From the NCBI RefSeq assembly GCF_050920415.1, contig NZ_CP169309.1: a stretch of DNA of 64,000 nucleotides; one strand, 5' to 3'. This DNA is from Escherichia coli. Lineage in GTDB: Bacteria > Pseudomonadota > Gammaproteobacteria > Enterobacterales > Enterobacteriaceae. The translations under genes were made by a program, and so were the position numbers. The notes beneath the pieces were generated by a model, which was not told the DNA's origin, made no database searches, and saw only the letters and a list, made by a program, of their open reading frames with translations. Positions 30,415 through 38,184 of the stretch are shown in pieces (the first letter of the stretch is position 1; each line of letters opens with the position of its first letter).

Positions 30415-31268
30415 GCACCATCCTGAAATGGGCGGGAAATAAAACCGCCATTATGTCCGAACTGAAAAAACACCTTCCTGCTGGCCCGCGACTGGTTGAA
30501 CCTTTCGCGGGTTCCTGTGCTGTGATGATGGAGACGGATTACCCCAGCTATCTGGTTGCGGATATTAATCCTGATTTAATCAACCTCTATAAAAAGGTTG
30601 CCGCTGATTGTGAATCGTTTATATCTCGCGCCAGAGTTTTATTTGAGATCGCAAACAGGGAGGTGGCTTATTACAACATAAGGCAGGAGTTTAATTACTC
30701 CACTGAAATTACTGATTTCATGAAAGCGGTATATTTCCTGTATCTCAATCGTCACGGTTACCGTGGTTTATGTCGCTATAACAAGAGCGGGCATTTCAAC
30801 ATTCCCTACGGTAATTATAAAAATCCGTATTTCCCTGAAAAAGAAATTCGCGCATTTGCAGAAAAAGCCCAGCGGGCAACGTTTATCTGCGCCAGCTTTG
30901 ATGAAACGCTGGCGATGTTGAAGGCGGGGGATGTGGTGTATTGCGATCCGCCGTATGACGGCACGTTTTCCGGTTATCACACTGACGGCTTCACTGAAGA
31001 TGACCAGTATCACCTGGCATCCGTTCTTGAACATCGGTCATCAGAAGGACATCCGGTCATTGTTTCTAACAGTGACACATCCCTGATCCGTTCGCTGTAT
31101 CGCAATTTTACTCACCACTACATCAAGGCAAAACGCAACATCGGTGTGGCAGCTGGCGAGGGTAAATCAGCAACAGAAATCATTGCTGTTTCCGGGCCGC
31201 GCTGCTGGGTGGGATTTGATTATTCGCGTGGCGTGGACAGTTCTGCCGTGTACGGAGTACGTGCATGA
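30411..31268 (+). CDS. dam: DNA adenine methyltransferase (Dam-type, N6-adenine)
   Basis: ORF from [38 protein letters not shown]... with catalytic DPPY motif (VYCDPPYDG); ATGA overlap with the preceding gene. Confidence 0.85.
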
Positions 31269-33679
31269 GTCATGCCGATATGAACAACTGCTGCGGCTTT
31301 AACGAGGCTACCGCAGCATTCTCATGGAACAGCCCGAAAAAGGCCATTAACCCTTATCTGGACCCGGCGGAAGTTGCGCCGGTTTCTGCGCTTTCAAACC
31401 TGATCACTCTGTACGCTGCCGATAACGAGCAGGAACAACTGCGCCGTGAGGCACTGAGTGATCAGGTCTGGGAGCGTTATTTCTTTAATGAATCCCGTGA
31501 TCCTGTCCAGCGCGAAATGGAGCAGGATAAGCTAATTAGCCGGGCAAAGCTGGCGCATGAGCAGCAGCGTTTTAATCCAGACATGGTCATTCTGGCGGAT
31601 GTCAACGCCCAGCCTTCCCATATCAGCAAGCCGCTGATGCAACGTATTAAATACTTCAGCAACCTGGGCAGGCCAAAGGCTTATTCCCGCTATTTGCGTG
31701 AGACGATTAAGCCATGCTTGGAACGACTGGAGCATGTACGCGACAGCCAGCTATCTGCATCTTTTCGTTTTATGGCAAGCCATGAAGGGCTGGACGGTCT
31801 GCTGATCCTGCCTGAAATGAGTCAGGATCAGGTGAAACGCCTGTCCACCCTTGTCGCTGCGCATATGAGCATGTGTCTTGATGCCGCTTGTGGTGATTTG
31901 TACGCCTCCGATGATGTTAAGCCGGAAGAAATCCGCAAGACATGGGAAAAGGTGGCAGCAGAAACCCTGCGACTGGATGTCATACCGCCTGCGTTTGAGC
32001 AACTCCGCCGGAAAAGAAACCGCCGCAAACCTGTGCCCTATGAACTCATTCCGGGTTCGCTGGCGCGTATGCTGTGCGCCGACTGGTGGTATCGGAAATT
32101 ATGGAAGATGCGTTGCGAATGGCGGGAAGAGCAGTTGCGTGCTGTCTGTCTGGTCAGCAAAAAAGCATCTCCCTATGTCAGCTATGAAGCCGTGATGCAT
32201 AAACGTGAGCAGCGCCGTAAGTCGCTGGAGTTTTTCCGTTCTCATGAACTGGTGAACGAAGACGGCGACACGCTGGACATGGAGGATGTGGTAAACGCCA
32301 GCAGCAGCAACCCTGCGCATCGCCGCAATGAGATGATGGCCTGTGTTAAAGGCCTGGAGCTTATCGCGGAAATACGCGGTGACTGCGCCGTTTTCTACAC
32401 CATCACCTGTCCGTCACGTTTCCATTCCACGCTAAATAACGGCAGGCCCAACCCGACCTGGACAAATGCGACGGTAAGACAAAGCAGTGATTATCTGGTT
32501 GGCATGTTTGCTGCATTTCGTAAGGCGATGCACAAAGCCGGATTGCGCTGGTATGGCGTGCGGGTGGCTGAGCCGCATCATGACGGTACAGTTCACTGGC
32601 ACCTGTTGTGTTTTATGCGCAAAAAAGATCGCCGCGCCATTACTGCTTTGTTGCGTAAGTTTGCCATTCGTGAAGACCGCGAGGAGCTGGGGAATAACAC
32701 GGGACCACGCTTTAAGTCTGAGTTGATTAACCCGCGCAAAGGAACGCCGACAAGCTACATCGCGAAATATATCAGTAAGAACATTGACGGGCGTGGTCTG
32801 GCTGGCGAGATCAGCAAGGAAACGGGTAAATCCCTGCGTGATAACGCTGAATACGTGAATGCCTGGGCGTCTCTGCATCGTGTTCAGCAATTCCGCTTCT
32901 TTGGCATTCCGGGGCGTCAGGCTTACCGTGAACTGCGATTGCTGGCTGGTCAGGCGGCAAGGCAACAGGGTGACAAAAAAGCAGGTGCGCCGGTACTGGA
33001 TAACCCGCGCCTTGATGCAATCCTGGCTGCTGCTGATGCTGGTTGTTTTGCCACCTACATCATGAAGCAGGGCGGCGTACTGGTTCCCCGTAAATATCAC
33101 CTCATCAGAACCGCTTATGAAATCAACGAAGAGCCAACCGCCTATGGCGATCACGGTATTCGTATTTATGGCATCTGGTCACCCATTGCAGAGGGCAAGA
33201 TCTGCACTCATGCAGTGAAGTGGAAAATGGTTCGTAAGGCCGTTGACATTCAGGAGGCGGCAGCCGACCAGGGCGCTTGCGCCCCTTGGACTCGTGGCAA
33301 TAACTGTCCCCTTGCTGAAAATTTGAACCAACAGGAGAAAGATAAATCAGCTGATGGGGGCCCCAGAACGGACTTTACCCGCATGGATGACAAGGAGTTG
33401 CACGATTACCTGCACAGTATGAACAAAAAGGGGCGCCGGGAACTGGCTGCAAGGTTACGTCTGGTGAAACCGAAACGGCGTAGAGACTACAAACAGCGAA
33501 TTACAGACCATCAACGACAGCAGCTCGTCTATGAACTGAAATCCAGAGGATTTGATGGCAGCGAGAAAGAGGTCGATTTACTCCTTCGCGGCGGCAGTAT
33601 TCCGTCAGGAGCAGGCCTGCGTATCTTCTATCGGAACCAGCGTTTGCAGGAAGATGATAAGTGGCGGAACCTGTATTAA
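31265..33679 (+). CDS. A: Replication initiation protein (P2 gpA-like rolling-circle endonuclease)
   Basis: 804-aa ORF in the gpA position of the early operon; size and context match P2 A / 186 A. Confidence 0.8.
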
Positions 33680-33774
33680 TTACGCTGGTTAACAATTCGT
33701 GCTCTTAATAATACCAGGCATATCAGGCTGATAAGCGTAAAAAAAACGTTTTACATCAGTAAGATTATTATATA

Positions 33775-33790
33775 CTGTAAATATAAACAG
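33775..33790. promoter_or_regulatory. LexA (SOS) box CTGTAAATATAAACAG
   Basis: Perfect CTGT-N8-ACAG palindrome 44 bp upstream of the 33834 ORF. Confidence 0.65.
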
Positions 33791-33833
33791 TGGTTATACA
33801 TACAGCATTGCGTGTGGTGTCATAGGAGGAAAG

Positions 33834-34022
33834 ATGCAGGACTATTTTTTGGAGTCTTTGAAGCTCCAGCGCATTGATTTTTTTCTTAAGCTTGTAGCGG
33901 CTAGTGAGTGTAGTGATGAAGAGAAGGGGCTGGCTCTGCAGTGGGTTTCTGAATTGACTGATGAACTCATGGCAAAAATCAGAAGCCACGAATACAACCG
34001 CTCAATGGATGTCATCAGCTGA
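33834..34022 (+). CDS. Small protein in Tum-like antirepressor position (62 aa)
   Basis: First ORF downstream of the LexA box; stop overlaps the RBS of the DinI-like gene. Confidence 0.45.
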   Translation: MQDYFLESLKLQRIDFFLKLVAASECSDEEKGLALQWVSELTDELMAKIRSHEYNRSMDVIS

Positions 34023-34032
34023 GGTGACTTTT

Positions 34033-34266
34033 ATGCGCATTGAAATAATGATCGATAAAGAGCAGAAGATTAGCCAGTCTACCCTGGACGCCCTTGAATC
34101 CGAGCTTTACCGCAATCTGCGCCCCCTGTATCCCAAAACGGTAATCCGTATCCGTAAAGGTAGCTCTAACGGTGTGGAACTGACCGGACTGCAACTGGAC
34201 GAAGAAAGAAAACAAGTGATGAAAATTATGCAGAAGGTGTGGGAAGACGACAGCTGGCTGTATTGA
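34033..34266 (+). CDS. DinI-like protein (Tum C-terminal-domain-like)
   Basis: 77-aa ORF MRIEIMIDKEQKISQSTLDALESELYRNLRPLYPKTVIRIRKGSSNGVELTGL...VWEDDSWLY resembles DinI (MRIEV...WESADDWF); GAGGTG RBS. Confidence 0.7.
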   Translation: MRIEIMIDKEQKISQSTLDALESELYRNLRPLYPKTVIRIRKGSSNGVELTGLQLDEERKQVMKIMQKVWEDDSWLY

Positions 34267-34379
34267 TTTTGTCAATAGACGCTTGTTTTTACTAATCAAA
34301 AAGGGTTACATATGAGTGAGAGGCGATGTCAATCAGATATCGCCTTGTTTTTTGTCAAGAAAAGAATAATAGGCTAAAA

Positions 34380-35057
34380 ATGAAAATTAATAATGTAGCG
34401 TTACCAATATCTCTTGCTGTAATCCTAACTGGTTGCGTGCCACATGCTTCTAACCGAAATATCACTGCTATTGAAGTGGTGAAGCCTGCTATTGGGCAAA
34501 GTGCTACCGCCTACATGGGCGATCCCATTATCACATCTGCTACTGGATTTAAAACGGACGTACTAGAACTTGGTGCGGCTAATGGTGCATTGTCTTCTAT
34601 CGCTGCTGGTACATATTGCAGTGAGGGGAATGGAATTTACCGCAATTATCATAACCCTCAAGCTGTTGCGTTAAAAAATCTCTATGGGCAAATCGGTAAC
34701 TATGTTGATTATGTTAGTTACGATGCTGCAAAAAATGAGATATCACCGCCAAATGGTACTTCTTATACTGCATCAGAAATTTCTATCAAACGTGTTCCTG
34801 ATGGGCTGTGTCGAGTTAGTAACTCATTGGTTAAGACTATCGAATACAATGGAAATGCAGGCGGTGTAATGAAGTTCACCTATCGTGAATTTGCAAACGA
34901 TATGGCTCGTGCAGCATTTACAACAGATTTTTCTGTAGATTCTAAGGGAAGTGACGTTATCGCTTACAAAGGTGCCAAGTTCAAAGTGAACAAGGCTGAT
35001 AACTCGTCTATTTCTTATACAATTATTTCTGGCTTTGACAAGGCTGTCACGTTCTAG
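34380..35057 (+). CDS. Predicted lipoprotein (cargo gene between replication module and cos)
   Basis: Start at MKINNVALPISLAVILTGC... with lipobox LTGC; 225 aa; followed by a terminator. Confidence 0.65.
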   Translation: MKINNVALPISLAVILTGCVPHASNRNITAIEVVKPAIGQSATAYMGDPIITSATGFKTDVLELGAANGALSSIAAGTYCSEGNGIYRNYHNPQAVALKNLYGQIGNYVDYVSYDAAKNEISPPNGTSYTASEISIKRVPDGLCRVSNSLVKTIEYNGNAGGVMKFTYREFANDMARAAFTTDFSVDSKGSDVIAYKGAKFKVNKADNSSISYTIISGFDKAVTF

Positions 35058-35374: not shown

Positions 35375-36171
<797 letters not shown>

Positions 36172-36174
36172 AAC

Positions 36175-37338
36175 AGCTCCTCATAGGCACTCAACGGCCT
36201 GTGTTCCACCTGACTGACCTGCTGCCAGAGTGGGGCGTGATGCTCCGGCACGGTCTGCCAGCCGTATACAGCCGAACAGAGACGGTGCGATGCTACCTGT
36301 TGCTCATTACTGTAGATCCGCAGTTCATCATCCAGCGAGATCCGTATTGATACCGGCTGGCCACACAGGCTTTCCGGCACGCTGTAACGGTTCCCGCCAA
36401 CCTCGATATAGCCATCCCAGGAGACATGACGGATATCGAAGTAGCTGGTATCGAAGTCCGTACCTGGCAGCGCCTGCAGATGCACCTGTTCCTGCGTGAA
36501 GCGCTGTTCCGGTGTCTGCCTGAACTGGCGAAGTCCCGCCTGTCGGCAACGTCAGCCATCCACTGCTCCAGTAGCTGATTAACATGGGCGAAGCTGTCGA
36601 ACCGGCGGTACCGGACGAAGAAGTTTTCCTTGAGGTATTTCACCATCCGTTCCACCTTACCTTTGGTTCTGGCCCTTCGTGGACGGCAGGCCCGTGGCAG
36701 GAAGCCATAGTGATGGCCAGCAGCAGGAACCCGGAGTTGAACACCACCTTCCCGTTGTTATTTTTCAGCACTGCGGCTTTCTGGTTATCGACCAGCACGG
36801 TTTTCACGCTGCCGCCGAAGTAGCGAAAGGCGCGGACCAGTGACTCATAGGTATGTTCAGCATCCTGCTTTGGTGCCGCGAAGACATGGAAGCGACGTGA
36901 GAACCCCAGCGTATTAACCGCGAAGTTAACCCTGCATCGTTGCCCGGCAACCTCAGCCTCAACTTCTCCCCAGTCATGCTGTAGCTGGTAACCGGGCTGA
37001 GTTTCGAAGCGAACCGTTTTCTTCGATGGCCGCATCTTACGTTTGGGCTGGATGTAGTAACGCAACATGGAACGGCCACCGGTATAACCCATCGCTTTGA
37101 TTTCCGCCAGGATGACCTCGCCGTTCCAGACATTCTCAGCCAGACGCATGTCGATATAGTCCATGAACGGCTTGAGTTTGGCCATTTTGTGGCGTGTTTT
37201 TCTGGCCGGAGGTTCCGGGTATTTCAGGTACCGTCTGACAGTCCGCTCAGAGCAACCAACCTGAGTGGCAATATCAACAATATACGCACCTTGCTGGCGC
37301 ATTTGCTTTATCATGTAAAAGTCCTCTCTGCTCAGCAT
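36175..37338 (-). pseudogene. istA: IS21-family transposase IstA, frameshifted
   Basis: N-terminal 232-aa fragment (36640..37338, HTH region MIKQMRQQGAYIVDIATQVGCSERTVRRYL) followed by C-terminal pieces in other frames (36168..36655). Confidence 0.7.
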
Positions 37339-37485: not shown

Positions 37486-38184
37486 ATGGTTATGTTAGTG
37501 GATGACTGTCCACGATGTGGATCACAAAAAATAGCGTTTGATGTTAATGGGCTGAATTGCACTAGGGTTTACAATGCATTGGGCGGGGGTAAAACATACG
37601 AGTACGAGGTCTATTGTGTTTGCCGAGAGTGTCATAAAACGACAATGTTTCTTTGCAGACCTTTAACGAAAAATAAAACTTTAGATGGCTATAATTGGGA
37701 AAGTGGAATATTCGGCTTAAAGGAAGTTGCAGAGGTTGTTAGGCCTATATCACCGGCAGACTTAGCAGTAGAGGAGCCACCAGAGTTCTTACCTGAGCAT
37801 ATCAATAGTGCATATGAGGAAGGGGCGAAATGTTTGGCTATAGGTTGTTATAATGCAGCAGCAACCATGTTTAGGCTTTGCCTTGATTATGCCACAAAAG
37901 GACTTCTTCCTGATGGGGAGCAAGGGCCTGCGCAAAAAATAAGGAGAAGCCTAGGGTTAAGAATGGAGTGGTTATTTGATAATCATCTACTGCCTGAAGC
38001 TTTAAGGGAACTAGCTGAATGCGTTAAAGATGACGGAAATGATGGAGCGCATGAAGGTATTTTGGATAAAGCTGCTGCTGAGGATCTTGAAGATTTTACC
38101 TATCTTTTTTTAGAACGGCTTTACACTGAACCTCAACGCCTTATCGAAGCCAAGACAAGGCGTGAACAAAGAAGAAACAAATAA
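37486..38184 (+). CDS. Hypothetical protein with N-terminal zinc-ribbon (CPRCG...CRECH) and C-terminal DUF4145-like helical domain
   Basis: 232-aa ORF with GGGAGGAG RBS; Cys4 cluster in first 50 aa; C-terminal region resembles DUF4145 (domain assignment from memory, unverified). Confidence 0.6.
   Translation: MVMLVDDCPRCGSQKIAFDVNGLNCTRVYNALGGGKTYEYEVYCVCRECHKTTMFLCRPLTKNKTLDGYNWESGIFGLKEVAEVVRPISPADLAVEEPPEFLPEHINSAYEEGAKCLAIGCYNAAATMFRLCLDYATKGLLPDGEQGPAQKIRRSLGLRMEWLFDNHLLPEALRELAECVKDDGNDGAHEGILDKAAAEDLEDFTYLFLERLYTEPQRLIEAKTRREQRRNK

What the first reader, a model, noticed from the sequence alone, without database searches (positions are those of the whole stretch)
33775..34266. SOS-controlled two-gene Tum/DinI-like module: the prophage is predicted to be LexA-regulated and UV-inducible
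A perfect LexA box (CTGTAAATATAAACAG) precedes a 62-aa ORF that is translationally coupled to a DinI-like 77-aa ORF. In phage 186 the LexA-controlled tum gene encodes an antirepressor with a DinI-like domain. Here the function appears split across two ORFs, which may be a different organisation of the induction switch or a frameshifted tum.
Basis: partly seen in the sequence, partly recalled or inferred. Interest (0 to 1): 0.5.

Follow-up and report, generated by a model that had tools for sequence, protein, structure and literature searches.

The report
Known SOS-controlled tumA-tumB prophage induction operon
This is the ordinary, already described DNA-damage switch of a Fels-2-like (P2/186 family) prophage in E. 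coli: a LexA-repressed promoter drives a small antirepressor gene (tumA) and a DinI-like gene (tumB), an arrangement found in about a fifth of complete E. coli genomes.

Summary
A LexA box (TACTGTAAATATAAACAGTG, 33773-33792) sits on the -10 of a promoter laid out like phage 186 p95. A 62-aa ORF (33834-34022) follows, then 10 nt later a 77-aa DinI-family ORF (34033-34266) and a terminator-like hairpin. The module lies just downstream of the P2-type replication gene A, in a prophage with 186-type cI/apl/cII.

The 62-aa protein is a profile-level homologue of the N-terminal half of 186 Tum. The 77-aa protein is 41% identical to its C-terminal, DinI-like half.

The split is not a frameshift. It is kept under strong purifying selection (dN/dS 0.05-0.11) in lineages with three different junctions. 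The DNA is 96.8% identical to Salmonella phage Fels-2 and occurs in 1124 of 5426 complete E. coli genomes.

The organisation is published. PSP3 carries annotated tumA/tumB genes, and Lemire et al. 2011 state that Fels-2 and PSP3 have tum split in two, with the upstream gene encoding the antirepressor.

The one mildly open point is that near-identical TumA proteins accompany CI repressors only 40-59% identical overall.

The parts
33750..33755 (+). -35 hexamer TTTACA of the SOS promoter (counterpart of 186 p95)
   Evidence: Read from the sequence. There is a 17-nt spacer to TACTGT. This is the same layout as the annotated 186 p95, TTCACA-18-TACTGT. The generic promoter scan did not call it because TACTGT matches TATAAT at only 3 of 6 positions.
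33773..33778 (+). -10 hexamer TACTGT, which is also the left half of the LexA box
   Evidence: It corresponds by position to the annotated -10 of 186 p95, which is also TACTGT inside the LexA site.
33773..33792 (+). LexA operator (SOS box) TACTGTAAATATAAACAGTG; core CTGT-N8-ACAG at 33775-33790
   Evidence: Unique in the window, and 0 of 100 shuffles reach 3 or fewer mismatches to the consensus. TACTGT-N8-ACAGT is invariant upstream of tumA homologues in 7 diverged phages whose flanks differ.
33834..34022 (+). tumA: 62-aa antirepressor homologue (N-terminal half of 186 Tum; PSP3 TumA; Fels-2 STM2728)
   Evidence: phrog_698 E = 6e-38, phrog_8554 E = 1e-8, phrog_1993 E = 0.002. The 186 Tum N-half hits the same three families, in register. 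It is 97% identical to Fels-2 STM2728. dN/dS is 0.06-0.11. The AlphaFold2 model is a two-helix hairpin, pLDDT 87.7.
34033..34266 (+). tumB: 77-aa DinI-family protein (C-terminal half of 186 Tum; PSP3 TumB; Fels-2 STM2726.1)
   Evidence: Pfam DinI E = 8e-23. 41% identical to 186 Tum residues 71-145, E = 3e-24. Matches E. coli DinI structure 1GHH at E = 2e-6. phrog_189 positions 71-148 of 151. dN/dS is 0.05-0.08.
34320..34356 (+). Terminator-like hairpin with a T run, closing the tumAB unit (same position as 186 t95a)
   Evidence: 11-bp stem GAGGCGATGTCAATCAGATATCGCCTT followed by GTTTTTTGTC. 186 has the partial terminator t95a at the same position after tum.
27831..28463 (-). cI immunity repressor (210 aa, 186-type), the inferred target of TumA
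   Evidence: phrog_4 transcriptional repressor E = 5e-39. Homologous to 186 CI, Fels-2 CI and SopEPhi CI. PGAP names the counterpart in E. coli KE58 'phage repressor protein CI'.
28583..28831 (+). apl-like excisionase/repressor, first gene of the lytic operon that CI keeps off
   Evidence: 70-74% identical to the Fels-2 and SopEPhi Apl homologues and 30% to 186 Apl. It faces cI divergently, as in 186.

Best explanation
This is the SOS (tum) operon of a Fels-2-like, P2/186-family prophage of E. coli. In an undamaged lysogen, host LexA sits on the box that overlaps the -10 of the promoter TTTACA-17-TACTGT and keeps tumA-tumB silent. DNA damage activates RecA, LexA cleaves itself, and the operon is transcribed. 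TumA is a 62-aa acidic two-helix protein homologous to the N-terminal half of 186 Tum. It binds the prophage CI repressor non-covalently and stops it binding its operators. The lytic promoter then fires, Apl is made, and the prophage excises and replicates. TumB, translated from its own Shine-Dalgarno 10 nt after tumA, is a DinI-like protein that probably binds RecA filaments and tunes the strength or duration of the SOS signal; it is not needed for antirepression itself. Shown here: the sequence features, the homologies, the synteny, the conservation of the LexA box and the conservation of the split. Inferred from 186, PSP3 and Fels-2: LexA binding, TumA-CI binding, inducibility, and the role of TumB.
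For: LexA box: unique and non-random, and invariant in 7 diverged relatives whose flanks diverge. It has the same promoter and operator layout as the annotated 186 p95. TumA: it shares profile families, in register, with the 186 Tum N-half and PSP3 TumA. TumB: 41% identical to the Tum C-half, with a Pfam DinI match. Synteny: the module directly follows gene A in a prophage carrying int, cI, apl and cII of 186 type. Relatives: the DNA is 96.8% identical to Fels-2. PSP3 tumA is annotated 'UV induction of prophage'. Literature: Fels-2 and PSP3 have tum split in two, and in PSP3 the upstream gene carries antirepressor activity (PMC3121763). That paper also cites Bunny et al. [quoted passage not shown] Self-sufficiency of TumA: its homologues stand alone behind a LexA box, with no DinI gene nearby, in ESSI-2, ESSI2_ev015 and a Yersinia phage. 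Selection: both genes are under purifying selection and the split is preserved.
Against: No experiment exists on this prophage. Pairwise BLASTP finds no TumA versus 186 Tum alignment, so that homology rests on profiles and synteny. The window's CI is only 59% identical to Fels-2 CI, so the TumA-CI pairing here is extrapolated. The PSP3 antirepressor assignment is a personal communication reported second-hand. The role of DinI-like proteins in induction is unclear: non-polar deletions of the dinI homologues in Gifsy prophages had no significant effect. A degraded IS21-family element lies 1.1 kb downstream of the module, and the integrity of the rest of the prophage was not examined.
Confidence: 0.9

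Rival explanations
1. The two ORFs are a recently frameshifted, inactive tum gene, so the prophage has lost SOS inducibility.
For: 186 Tum is a single 146-aa protein. The two window ORFs are in different frames.
Against: The split is present in 1056 or more E. coli genomes and in Fels-2, RE2010, SopEPhi, PSP3 and many Klebsiella phages. Three different junctions keep both ORFs intact: 10 nt with a +1 frame shift, 11 nt with +2, and 3 nt in frame. Each ORF has its own Shine-Dalgarno, and dN/dS is 0.05-0.11 at dS up to 1.4. None of the best 120 homologues is fused. Fused Tum is confined to about 28 phage records at least 90% identical to 186.
Confidence: 0.02
2. The module is SOS-regulated, but TumA is not cognate to this prophage's CI. 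The operon then only modulates the host SOS response or acts on other resident prophages, and this prophage is not inducible.
For: TumA is 97-100% identical in prophages whose CI is only 40-59% identical to the window's CI. This shows that the tum region and the immunity region recombine independently.
Against: The CI N-terminal domain stays 61-80% identical across these phages, whereas the central part is 24-38% identical. A shared target surface is therefore available. The same CI (100%) occurs together with TumA at 98.4% identity in the Kp4845-2 type Klebsiella phage records, so this combination is not a one-off. Strong purifying selection on tumA fits a function used by its own phage.
Confidence: 0.07
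3. The LexA-box-like palindrome is fortuitous or bound by another factor, and the ORFs are expressed constitutively or from the upstream gene A transcript.
For: The bare core CTGT-N8-ACAG is expected 0.74 times per window by chance. The -10 is weak and was missed by the generic scan.
Against: The 20-mer match is not reached in any of 100 shuffles. The box is the only invariant block in an alignment of 7 otherwise diverged upstream regions. It coincides with the site annotated as a putative LexA binding site at the SOS-dependent promoter p95 of 186.
Confidence: 0.01

Closest known systems
Salmonella phage Fels-2 STM2728 / STM2726.1 (Felsduovirus), and the same genes in RE2010, SopEPhi and Klebsiella 4LV2017-like phages
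   Same: The 681-bp module is 96.8% identical in DNA. TumA is 97% and TumB 99% identical. The LexA box, the 10-nt junction, the position after gene A and the downstream 225-aa lipoprotein gene are all the same.
   Different: The immunity repressor CI is only 59% identical. The cargo slot before the portal gene holds a degraded IS21-family element here, where Fels-2 has a 565-aa hypothetical gene.
Phage PSP3 tumA / tumB (NC_005340)
   Same: A two-cistron organisation after gene A, behind a LexA box. tumA is 60 aa ('UV induction of prophage') and tumB is a 77-aa DinI-like protein. TumB is 77% identical to the window's.
   Different: PSP3 TumA is only about 14% identical to the window TumA and belongs to phrog_1993 rather than phrog_698. 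The junction is a 3-nt in-frame gap. PSP3 CI has a duplicated N-terminal domain.
Coliphage 186 SOS operon: p95, LexA box, tum, t95a, orf97
   Same: The promoter and LexA-box layout, the position after gene A, the N-half/TumA and C-half/TumB homology, and a terminator after the DinI-like part all match. 186 also makes the DinI-like half on its own, from an internal GTG start with its own Shine-Dalgarno.
   Different: In 186 the two modules are fused in one 146-aa reading frame. 186 orf97 and the window's downstream gene are not homologous, although the longest ORFs are both 243 codons.
Gifsy-1/2/3 LexA-controlled dinI-antirepressor operons (gfoA, gftA), and the N15 antirepressor AntC
   Same: The logic is the same: LexA represses a small antirepressor that inactivates an uncleavable repressor by binding it, and in the Gifsy prophages a DinI homologue is encoded in the same operon (PMC3121763).
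   Different: In the Gifsy prophages the gene order is reversed, with dinI first. The phage family is different (lambdoid). No sequence relation of TumA to GfoA or GftA was seen or tested here.

Membership tests
186-type LexA-controlled tum (tumA/tumB) antirepressor operon of P2-family phages | A LexA box overlapping the -10 of a promoter directly upstream of the first cistron | tested here: met
   The box is at 33773-33792 and the -10 TACTGT is inside it. It aligns with the 186 p95 -10 and LexA site and is invariant in 7 relatives.
186-type LexA-controlled tum (tumA/tumB) antirepressor operon of P2-family phages | The first module is homologous to the N-terminal (antirepressor) half of 186 Tum / PSP3 TumA | tested here: met
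   Pairwise BLASTP is negative. By profiles, the window TumA hits phrog_698, phrog_8554 and phrog_1993 at 6e-38, 1e-8 and 2e-3. The 186 N-half hits the same families at 6e-6, 3e-12 and 1.5e-23, in register. PSP3 TumA hits phrog_1993 at 3e-32.
186-type LexA-controlled tum (tumA/tumB) antirepressor operon of P2-family phages | The second module is homologous to the DinI-like C-terminal half of Tum / PSP3 TumB | tested here: met
   41% identity over 75 aa, E = 3e-24. 77% identical to PSP3 TumB.
186-type LexA-controlled tum (tumA/tumB) antirepressor operon of P2-family phages | Location immediately downstream of replication gene A, in a prophage with 186-type int-cI / apl-cII | tested here: met
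   gpA is at 31265-33679 (phrog_91, E = 1.6e-289). CI, CII and Int were identified. The gene order is the same as in Fels-2, 186 and PSP3.
186-type LexA-controlled tum (tumA/tumB) antirepressor operon of P2-family phages | The product binds CI and prevents operator binding, and the prophage is induced by the SOS response | not testable with these tools
   Known for 186 Tum (Shearwin 1998, as cited in PMC3121763) and reported for PSP3 and Fels-2. No experiment exists for this prophage.
DinI family (Pfam PF06183) | A significant match to the family profile over the full domain | tested here: met
   PF06183 E = 8.2e-23, model positions 1-63 of 63. Matches E. coli DinI 1GHH at E = 2.4e-6.
Host DinI orthologue (NCBIfam NF007893 equivalog) | A score above the curated equivalog cut-off | tested here: not met
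   42.6 bits against a cut-off of 111. It is a phage DinI-like paralogue, not dinI itself.
Pseudogene (frameshifted tum) | A disruption absent from close relatives, with relaxed selection | tested here: not met
   The split is conserved across genera with three junction types, and dN/dS is 0.05-0.11.

The most novel reading that the evidence does not exclude
Near-identical TumA proteins (97-100%) are paired with CI repressors that are only 40-59% identical overall. These include one CI with a duplicated N-terminal domain. Across the set, the CI N-terminal DNA-binding domain stays 61-80% identical. The most novel reading not excluded is that this TumA type is a broad-specificity antirepressor that targets the conserved CI N-terminal domain. 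One SOS-induced TumA could then cross-induce heteroimmune Fels-2-like prophages in the same cell, as shown for Gifsy phages but, to my knowledge, not for the P2 family.
Probability: 0.3. Interest if true: 0.4.

Novelty: already known. Interest (0 to 1): 0.12.

Why it matters
It matters little as a discovery. The module is the textbook 186-type SOS switch in its split (tumA/tumB) form, which was already annotated in PSP3 and discussed for Fels-2. It is useful mainly for annotation. PGAP still calls TumA 'hypothetical protein', some records call it 'levan regulatory protein', and neither Pfam nor NCBIfam has a family for it. About a fifth of complete E. coli genomes carry the module, which marks P2-family prophages that are likely SOS-inducible, unlike P2 itself. 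Such prophages are relevant to cargo-gene mobilisation under DNA-damaging antibiotics.

Tried and rejected
- **BLASTP, TumA versus 186 Tum:** no alignment. Homology had to be established through PHROG profiles.
- **TumA against other libraries:** Pfam, NCBIfam and PDB sequence searches found nothing significant.
- **Foldseek of the AlphaFold2 TumA model against PDB:** only generic helical hairpins, all with E > 1. This gave no information on mechanism.
- **RNA hairpin over the tumA stop and tumB Shine-Dalgarno, as evidence for structural translational coupling:** not more stable than shuffled sequence (z = -0.79). Rejected as evidence.
- **Rfam scan of 33600-34450:** only a sub-threshold chance hit on the terminator.
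- **Homology of the downstream 243-codon ORF to 186 orf97, which has the same ORF length:** rejected.
- **Bunny et al. 2002 (PMC151935):** could not be read. Its content is cited only through Lemire 2011.
- **Literature search for tumA/tumB/PSP3:** only irrelevant papers.
- **Source of the Klebsiella Kp48xx phage records:** an in-silico prophage survey (PMC8617712). It offers no induction evidence.

Full report
**What is in the sequence**

Directly after the stop of an 804-aa P2-type replication protein (gpA, 31265-33679; phrog_91, E = 1.6e-289) the following features lie on the + strand:
- TTTACA at 33750-55, a 17-nt spacer, then TACTGT at 33773-78.
- The palindrome TACTGTAAATATAAACAGTG at 33773-92.
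- AGGAGG at 33824-29.
- A 62-codon ORF at 33834-34022.
- GAGGTG overlapping that ORF's TGA stop.
- After a 10-nt gap, a 77-codon ORF at 34033-34266.
- An 11-bp GC-containing hairpin with a T run at 34320-34356.

The core CTGT-N8-ACAG is unique in the window, but it would occur 0.74 times by chance. The full 20-mer matches the LexA consensus at 17 of 20 positions. That level is reached nowhere else in the window and in none of 100 shuffles.

**What the two proteins are**

ORF2 is a DinI-family protein:
- Pfam PF06183, E = 8e-23.
- E. coli DinI structure 1GHH, E = 2e-6.
- 41% identical over 75 residues to residues 71-145 of 186 Tum, E = 3e-24.
- It scores well below NCBI's equivalog cut-off for host DinI (42.6 against 111 bits). 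It is therefore a phage paralogue, not dinI itself.

ORF1 gives no BLASTP alignment with 186 Tum, so I tested homology through profiles:
- ORF1 matches phrog_698 (E = 6e-38), phrog_8554 (E = 1e-8) and phrog_1993 (E = 2e-3).
- The N-terminal 70 residues of 186 Tum match the same three families at 6e-6, 3e-12 and 1.5e-23, with the same residue-to-profile register.
- PSP3 TumA matches phrog_1993 at 3e-32, and a Yersinia phage 'tum protein' matches phrog_8554 at 3e-28.
- An alignment of seven of these proteins shows a shared pattern, roughly LQRI..F..L.A...C...EK.LAL.W..EL.

ORF1 is therefore a diverged homologue of the antirepressor half of Tum. AlphaFold2 predicts a two-helix hairpin (pLDDT 87.7). 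The protein is acidic, with 12 D+E against 7 K+R. Fold search gave only generic hairpins.

**The regulatory site**

In 186 the SOS-dependent promoter p95 is annotated with -35 TTCACA, an 18-nt spacer and -10 TACTGT. The LexA site covers the -10. The window has the same layout.

I aligned the 120 nt upstream of the tumA homologue from seven sources: the window, Fels-2, PSP3, 186, ESSI2_ev015, ESSI-2 and a Yersinia phage. The only invariant block is TACTGT...ACAGT, while everything around it diverges. Each locus contains exactly one CTGT-N8-ACAG, at that place. This phylogenetic footprint is strong evidence that the site is functional.

**Split or frameshift**

The module is 96.8% identical to Fels-2 and 96-98% identical to RE2010 and many Klebsiella P2-family prophages. 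It is present in 1124 of 5426 complete E. coli genomes, where it is annotated 'hypothetical protein | DinI-like family protein'.

The two-cistron form is kept with three different junctions:
- 10 nt with a +1 frame shift (window, Fels-2, RE2010).
- 11 nt with a +2 frame shift (SopEPhi, ST258-KPC3phi16.1).
- 3 nt in frame (PSP3).

Against relatives with saturated synonymous divergence (dS 0.8-1.4), dN/dS is 0.06-0.08 for both genes. Of 483 database homologues of TumA, the best 120 are 55-109 aa long and none is a fusion. Fused 146-aa Tum occurs only in a narrow clade at least 90% identical to 186, about 28 phage records.

In ESSI-2, ESSI2_ev015 and a Yersinia phage the TumA homologue stands alone behind its LexA box. 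No DinI-like gene was found in the roughly 1.2 kb of flank fetched on each side. The split is thus the common and stable state. The 186 fusion looks like the exception, as Lemire et al. suggested.

**What is already known**

- GenBank NC_005340 annotates PSP3 tumA ('similar to 5' end 186 tum; UV induction of prophage') and tumB ('similar to dinI and 3' end of 186 tum').
- The Fels-2 record refers to PSP3 TumB.
[quoted passage not shown] 2002. [quoted passage not shown]
- The title of Bunny et al. [quoted passage not shown] I could not read that paper.

The finding is therefore a correct re-identification of a described system.

**Mechanism**

Shown here: the sequence features, the homologies, the synteny and the conservation.

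Inferred from 186, PSP3 and Fels-2:
1. LexA occupies the box and blocks the promoter.
2. RecA-stimulated LexA self-cleavage releases tumAB transcription.
3. TumA binds the 210-aa 186-type CI (27831-28463, minus strand) and prevents operator binding.
4. The apl-cII lytic operon (apl at 28583-28831) is derepressed.
5. TumB modulates RecA filaments.

The importance of TumB is uncertain, because non-polar dinI-homologue deletions in Gifsy prophages had no significant effect on induction. Translational coupling of tumB to tumA is plausible from the 10-nt spacing but unsupported by structure.

**Side observations**

- TumA is 97-100% identical in prophages whose CI is only 40-59% identical to the window's CI. 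The CI N-terminal domain remains 61-80% identical while the middle of the protein is 24-38% identical. This raises the possibility of a broad-specificity antirepressor.
- The ORF after the terminator probably starts at 34380, giving a lipoprotein signal ending in LTGC, and PGAP calls a 225-aa gene in strain KE58. It is not homologous to 186 orf97.
- A degraded IS21-family element with frameshifted istA and istB occupies 35375-37338. In relatives this cargo slot holds an AIPR-family gene.

**Verdict**

The frameshift alternative is rejected. Novelty is 'already known', and interest is low.

Noticed in passing
window 27831-28463 (-) versus 33834-34022 (+); loci L007-L013: TumA is 97-100% identical in prophages whose CI repressor is only 40-59% identical to the window's CI. 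One of these, Kp4872-2, has a CI with a duplicated N-terminal domain. The CI N-terminal domain (residues 10-78) stays 61-80% identical, while residues 79-150 are 24-38% identical. This suggests either mosaic exchange of immunity cassettes or a broad-specificity antirepressor.
   Followed up: partly
window 34326-35057 (+): The longest ORF is 243 aa, but the real start is probably ATG 34380 (MKINNVALPISLAVILTGC, a lipoprotein signal with a lipobox). PGAP calls a 225-aa gene in E. coli KE58. The family is phrog_1353, function unknown. It occupies the position of 186 orf97 and has the same longest-ORF length, yet it is not homologous to orf97 (BLASTP E = 3.8).
   Followed up: partly
window 35375-37338 (-): A degraded IS21-family element: istB is split into two ORFs (35375-35788 and 35812-36171) and istA is fragmented (36168-37338). 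It sits in the cargo slot between the tum region and the portal gene. E. coli KE58 and phage RE2010 carry an AIPR-family (abortive infection) gene in that slot, and Fels-2 carries a different 565-aa gene.
   Followed up: partly
window 37486-38184 (+): A 232-aa ORF between the IS remnant and the portal gene, with no NCBIfam match. Probably further prophage cargo.
   Followed up: no
L003 1160-1413, L004 1163-1425, L005 1131-1359: In ESSI2_ev015, Cronobacter phage ESSI-2 and Yersinia phage vB_YenM_06.16-2, a TumA homologue follows a LexA box with no DinI-like gene detectable in the roughly 1.2-kb flanks fetched. The antirepressor module therefore occurs on its own. In ESSI-2 the gene is not annotated at all.
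   Followed up: partly
phage collection: The fused 146-aa form of Tum is confined to about 28 phage records at least 90% identical to 186 (for example BIS20, EtG and Yersinia pestis MHG phages). Split forms span several deeply diverged clades. The 186 fusion therefore looks derived.
   Followed up: partly
window 33793-33823; alignment A2: Between the LexA box and the Shine-Dalgarno, the window and Fels-2 carry about 20 extra nucleotides (GGTTATACATACAGCATTGCGTGTGGTGTCAT). PSP3, 186, ESSI and Yersinia relatives lack them. The stretch contains an isolated ACAG half-site. Its significance is unknown.
   Followed up: no
window 33834-34022 (annotation issue): TumA has no Pfam or NCBIfam family. PGAP names it 'hypothetical protein', and some UniRef and GenBank records call it 'levan regulatory protein'. 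PHROG lists its three related families (698, 8554, 1993) as 'unknown function', although PSP3 tumA has been annotated since the genome was deposited.
   Followed up: yes
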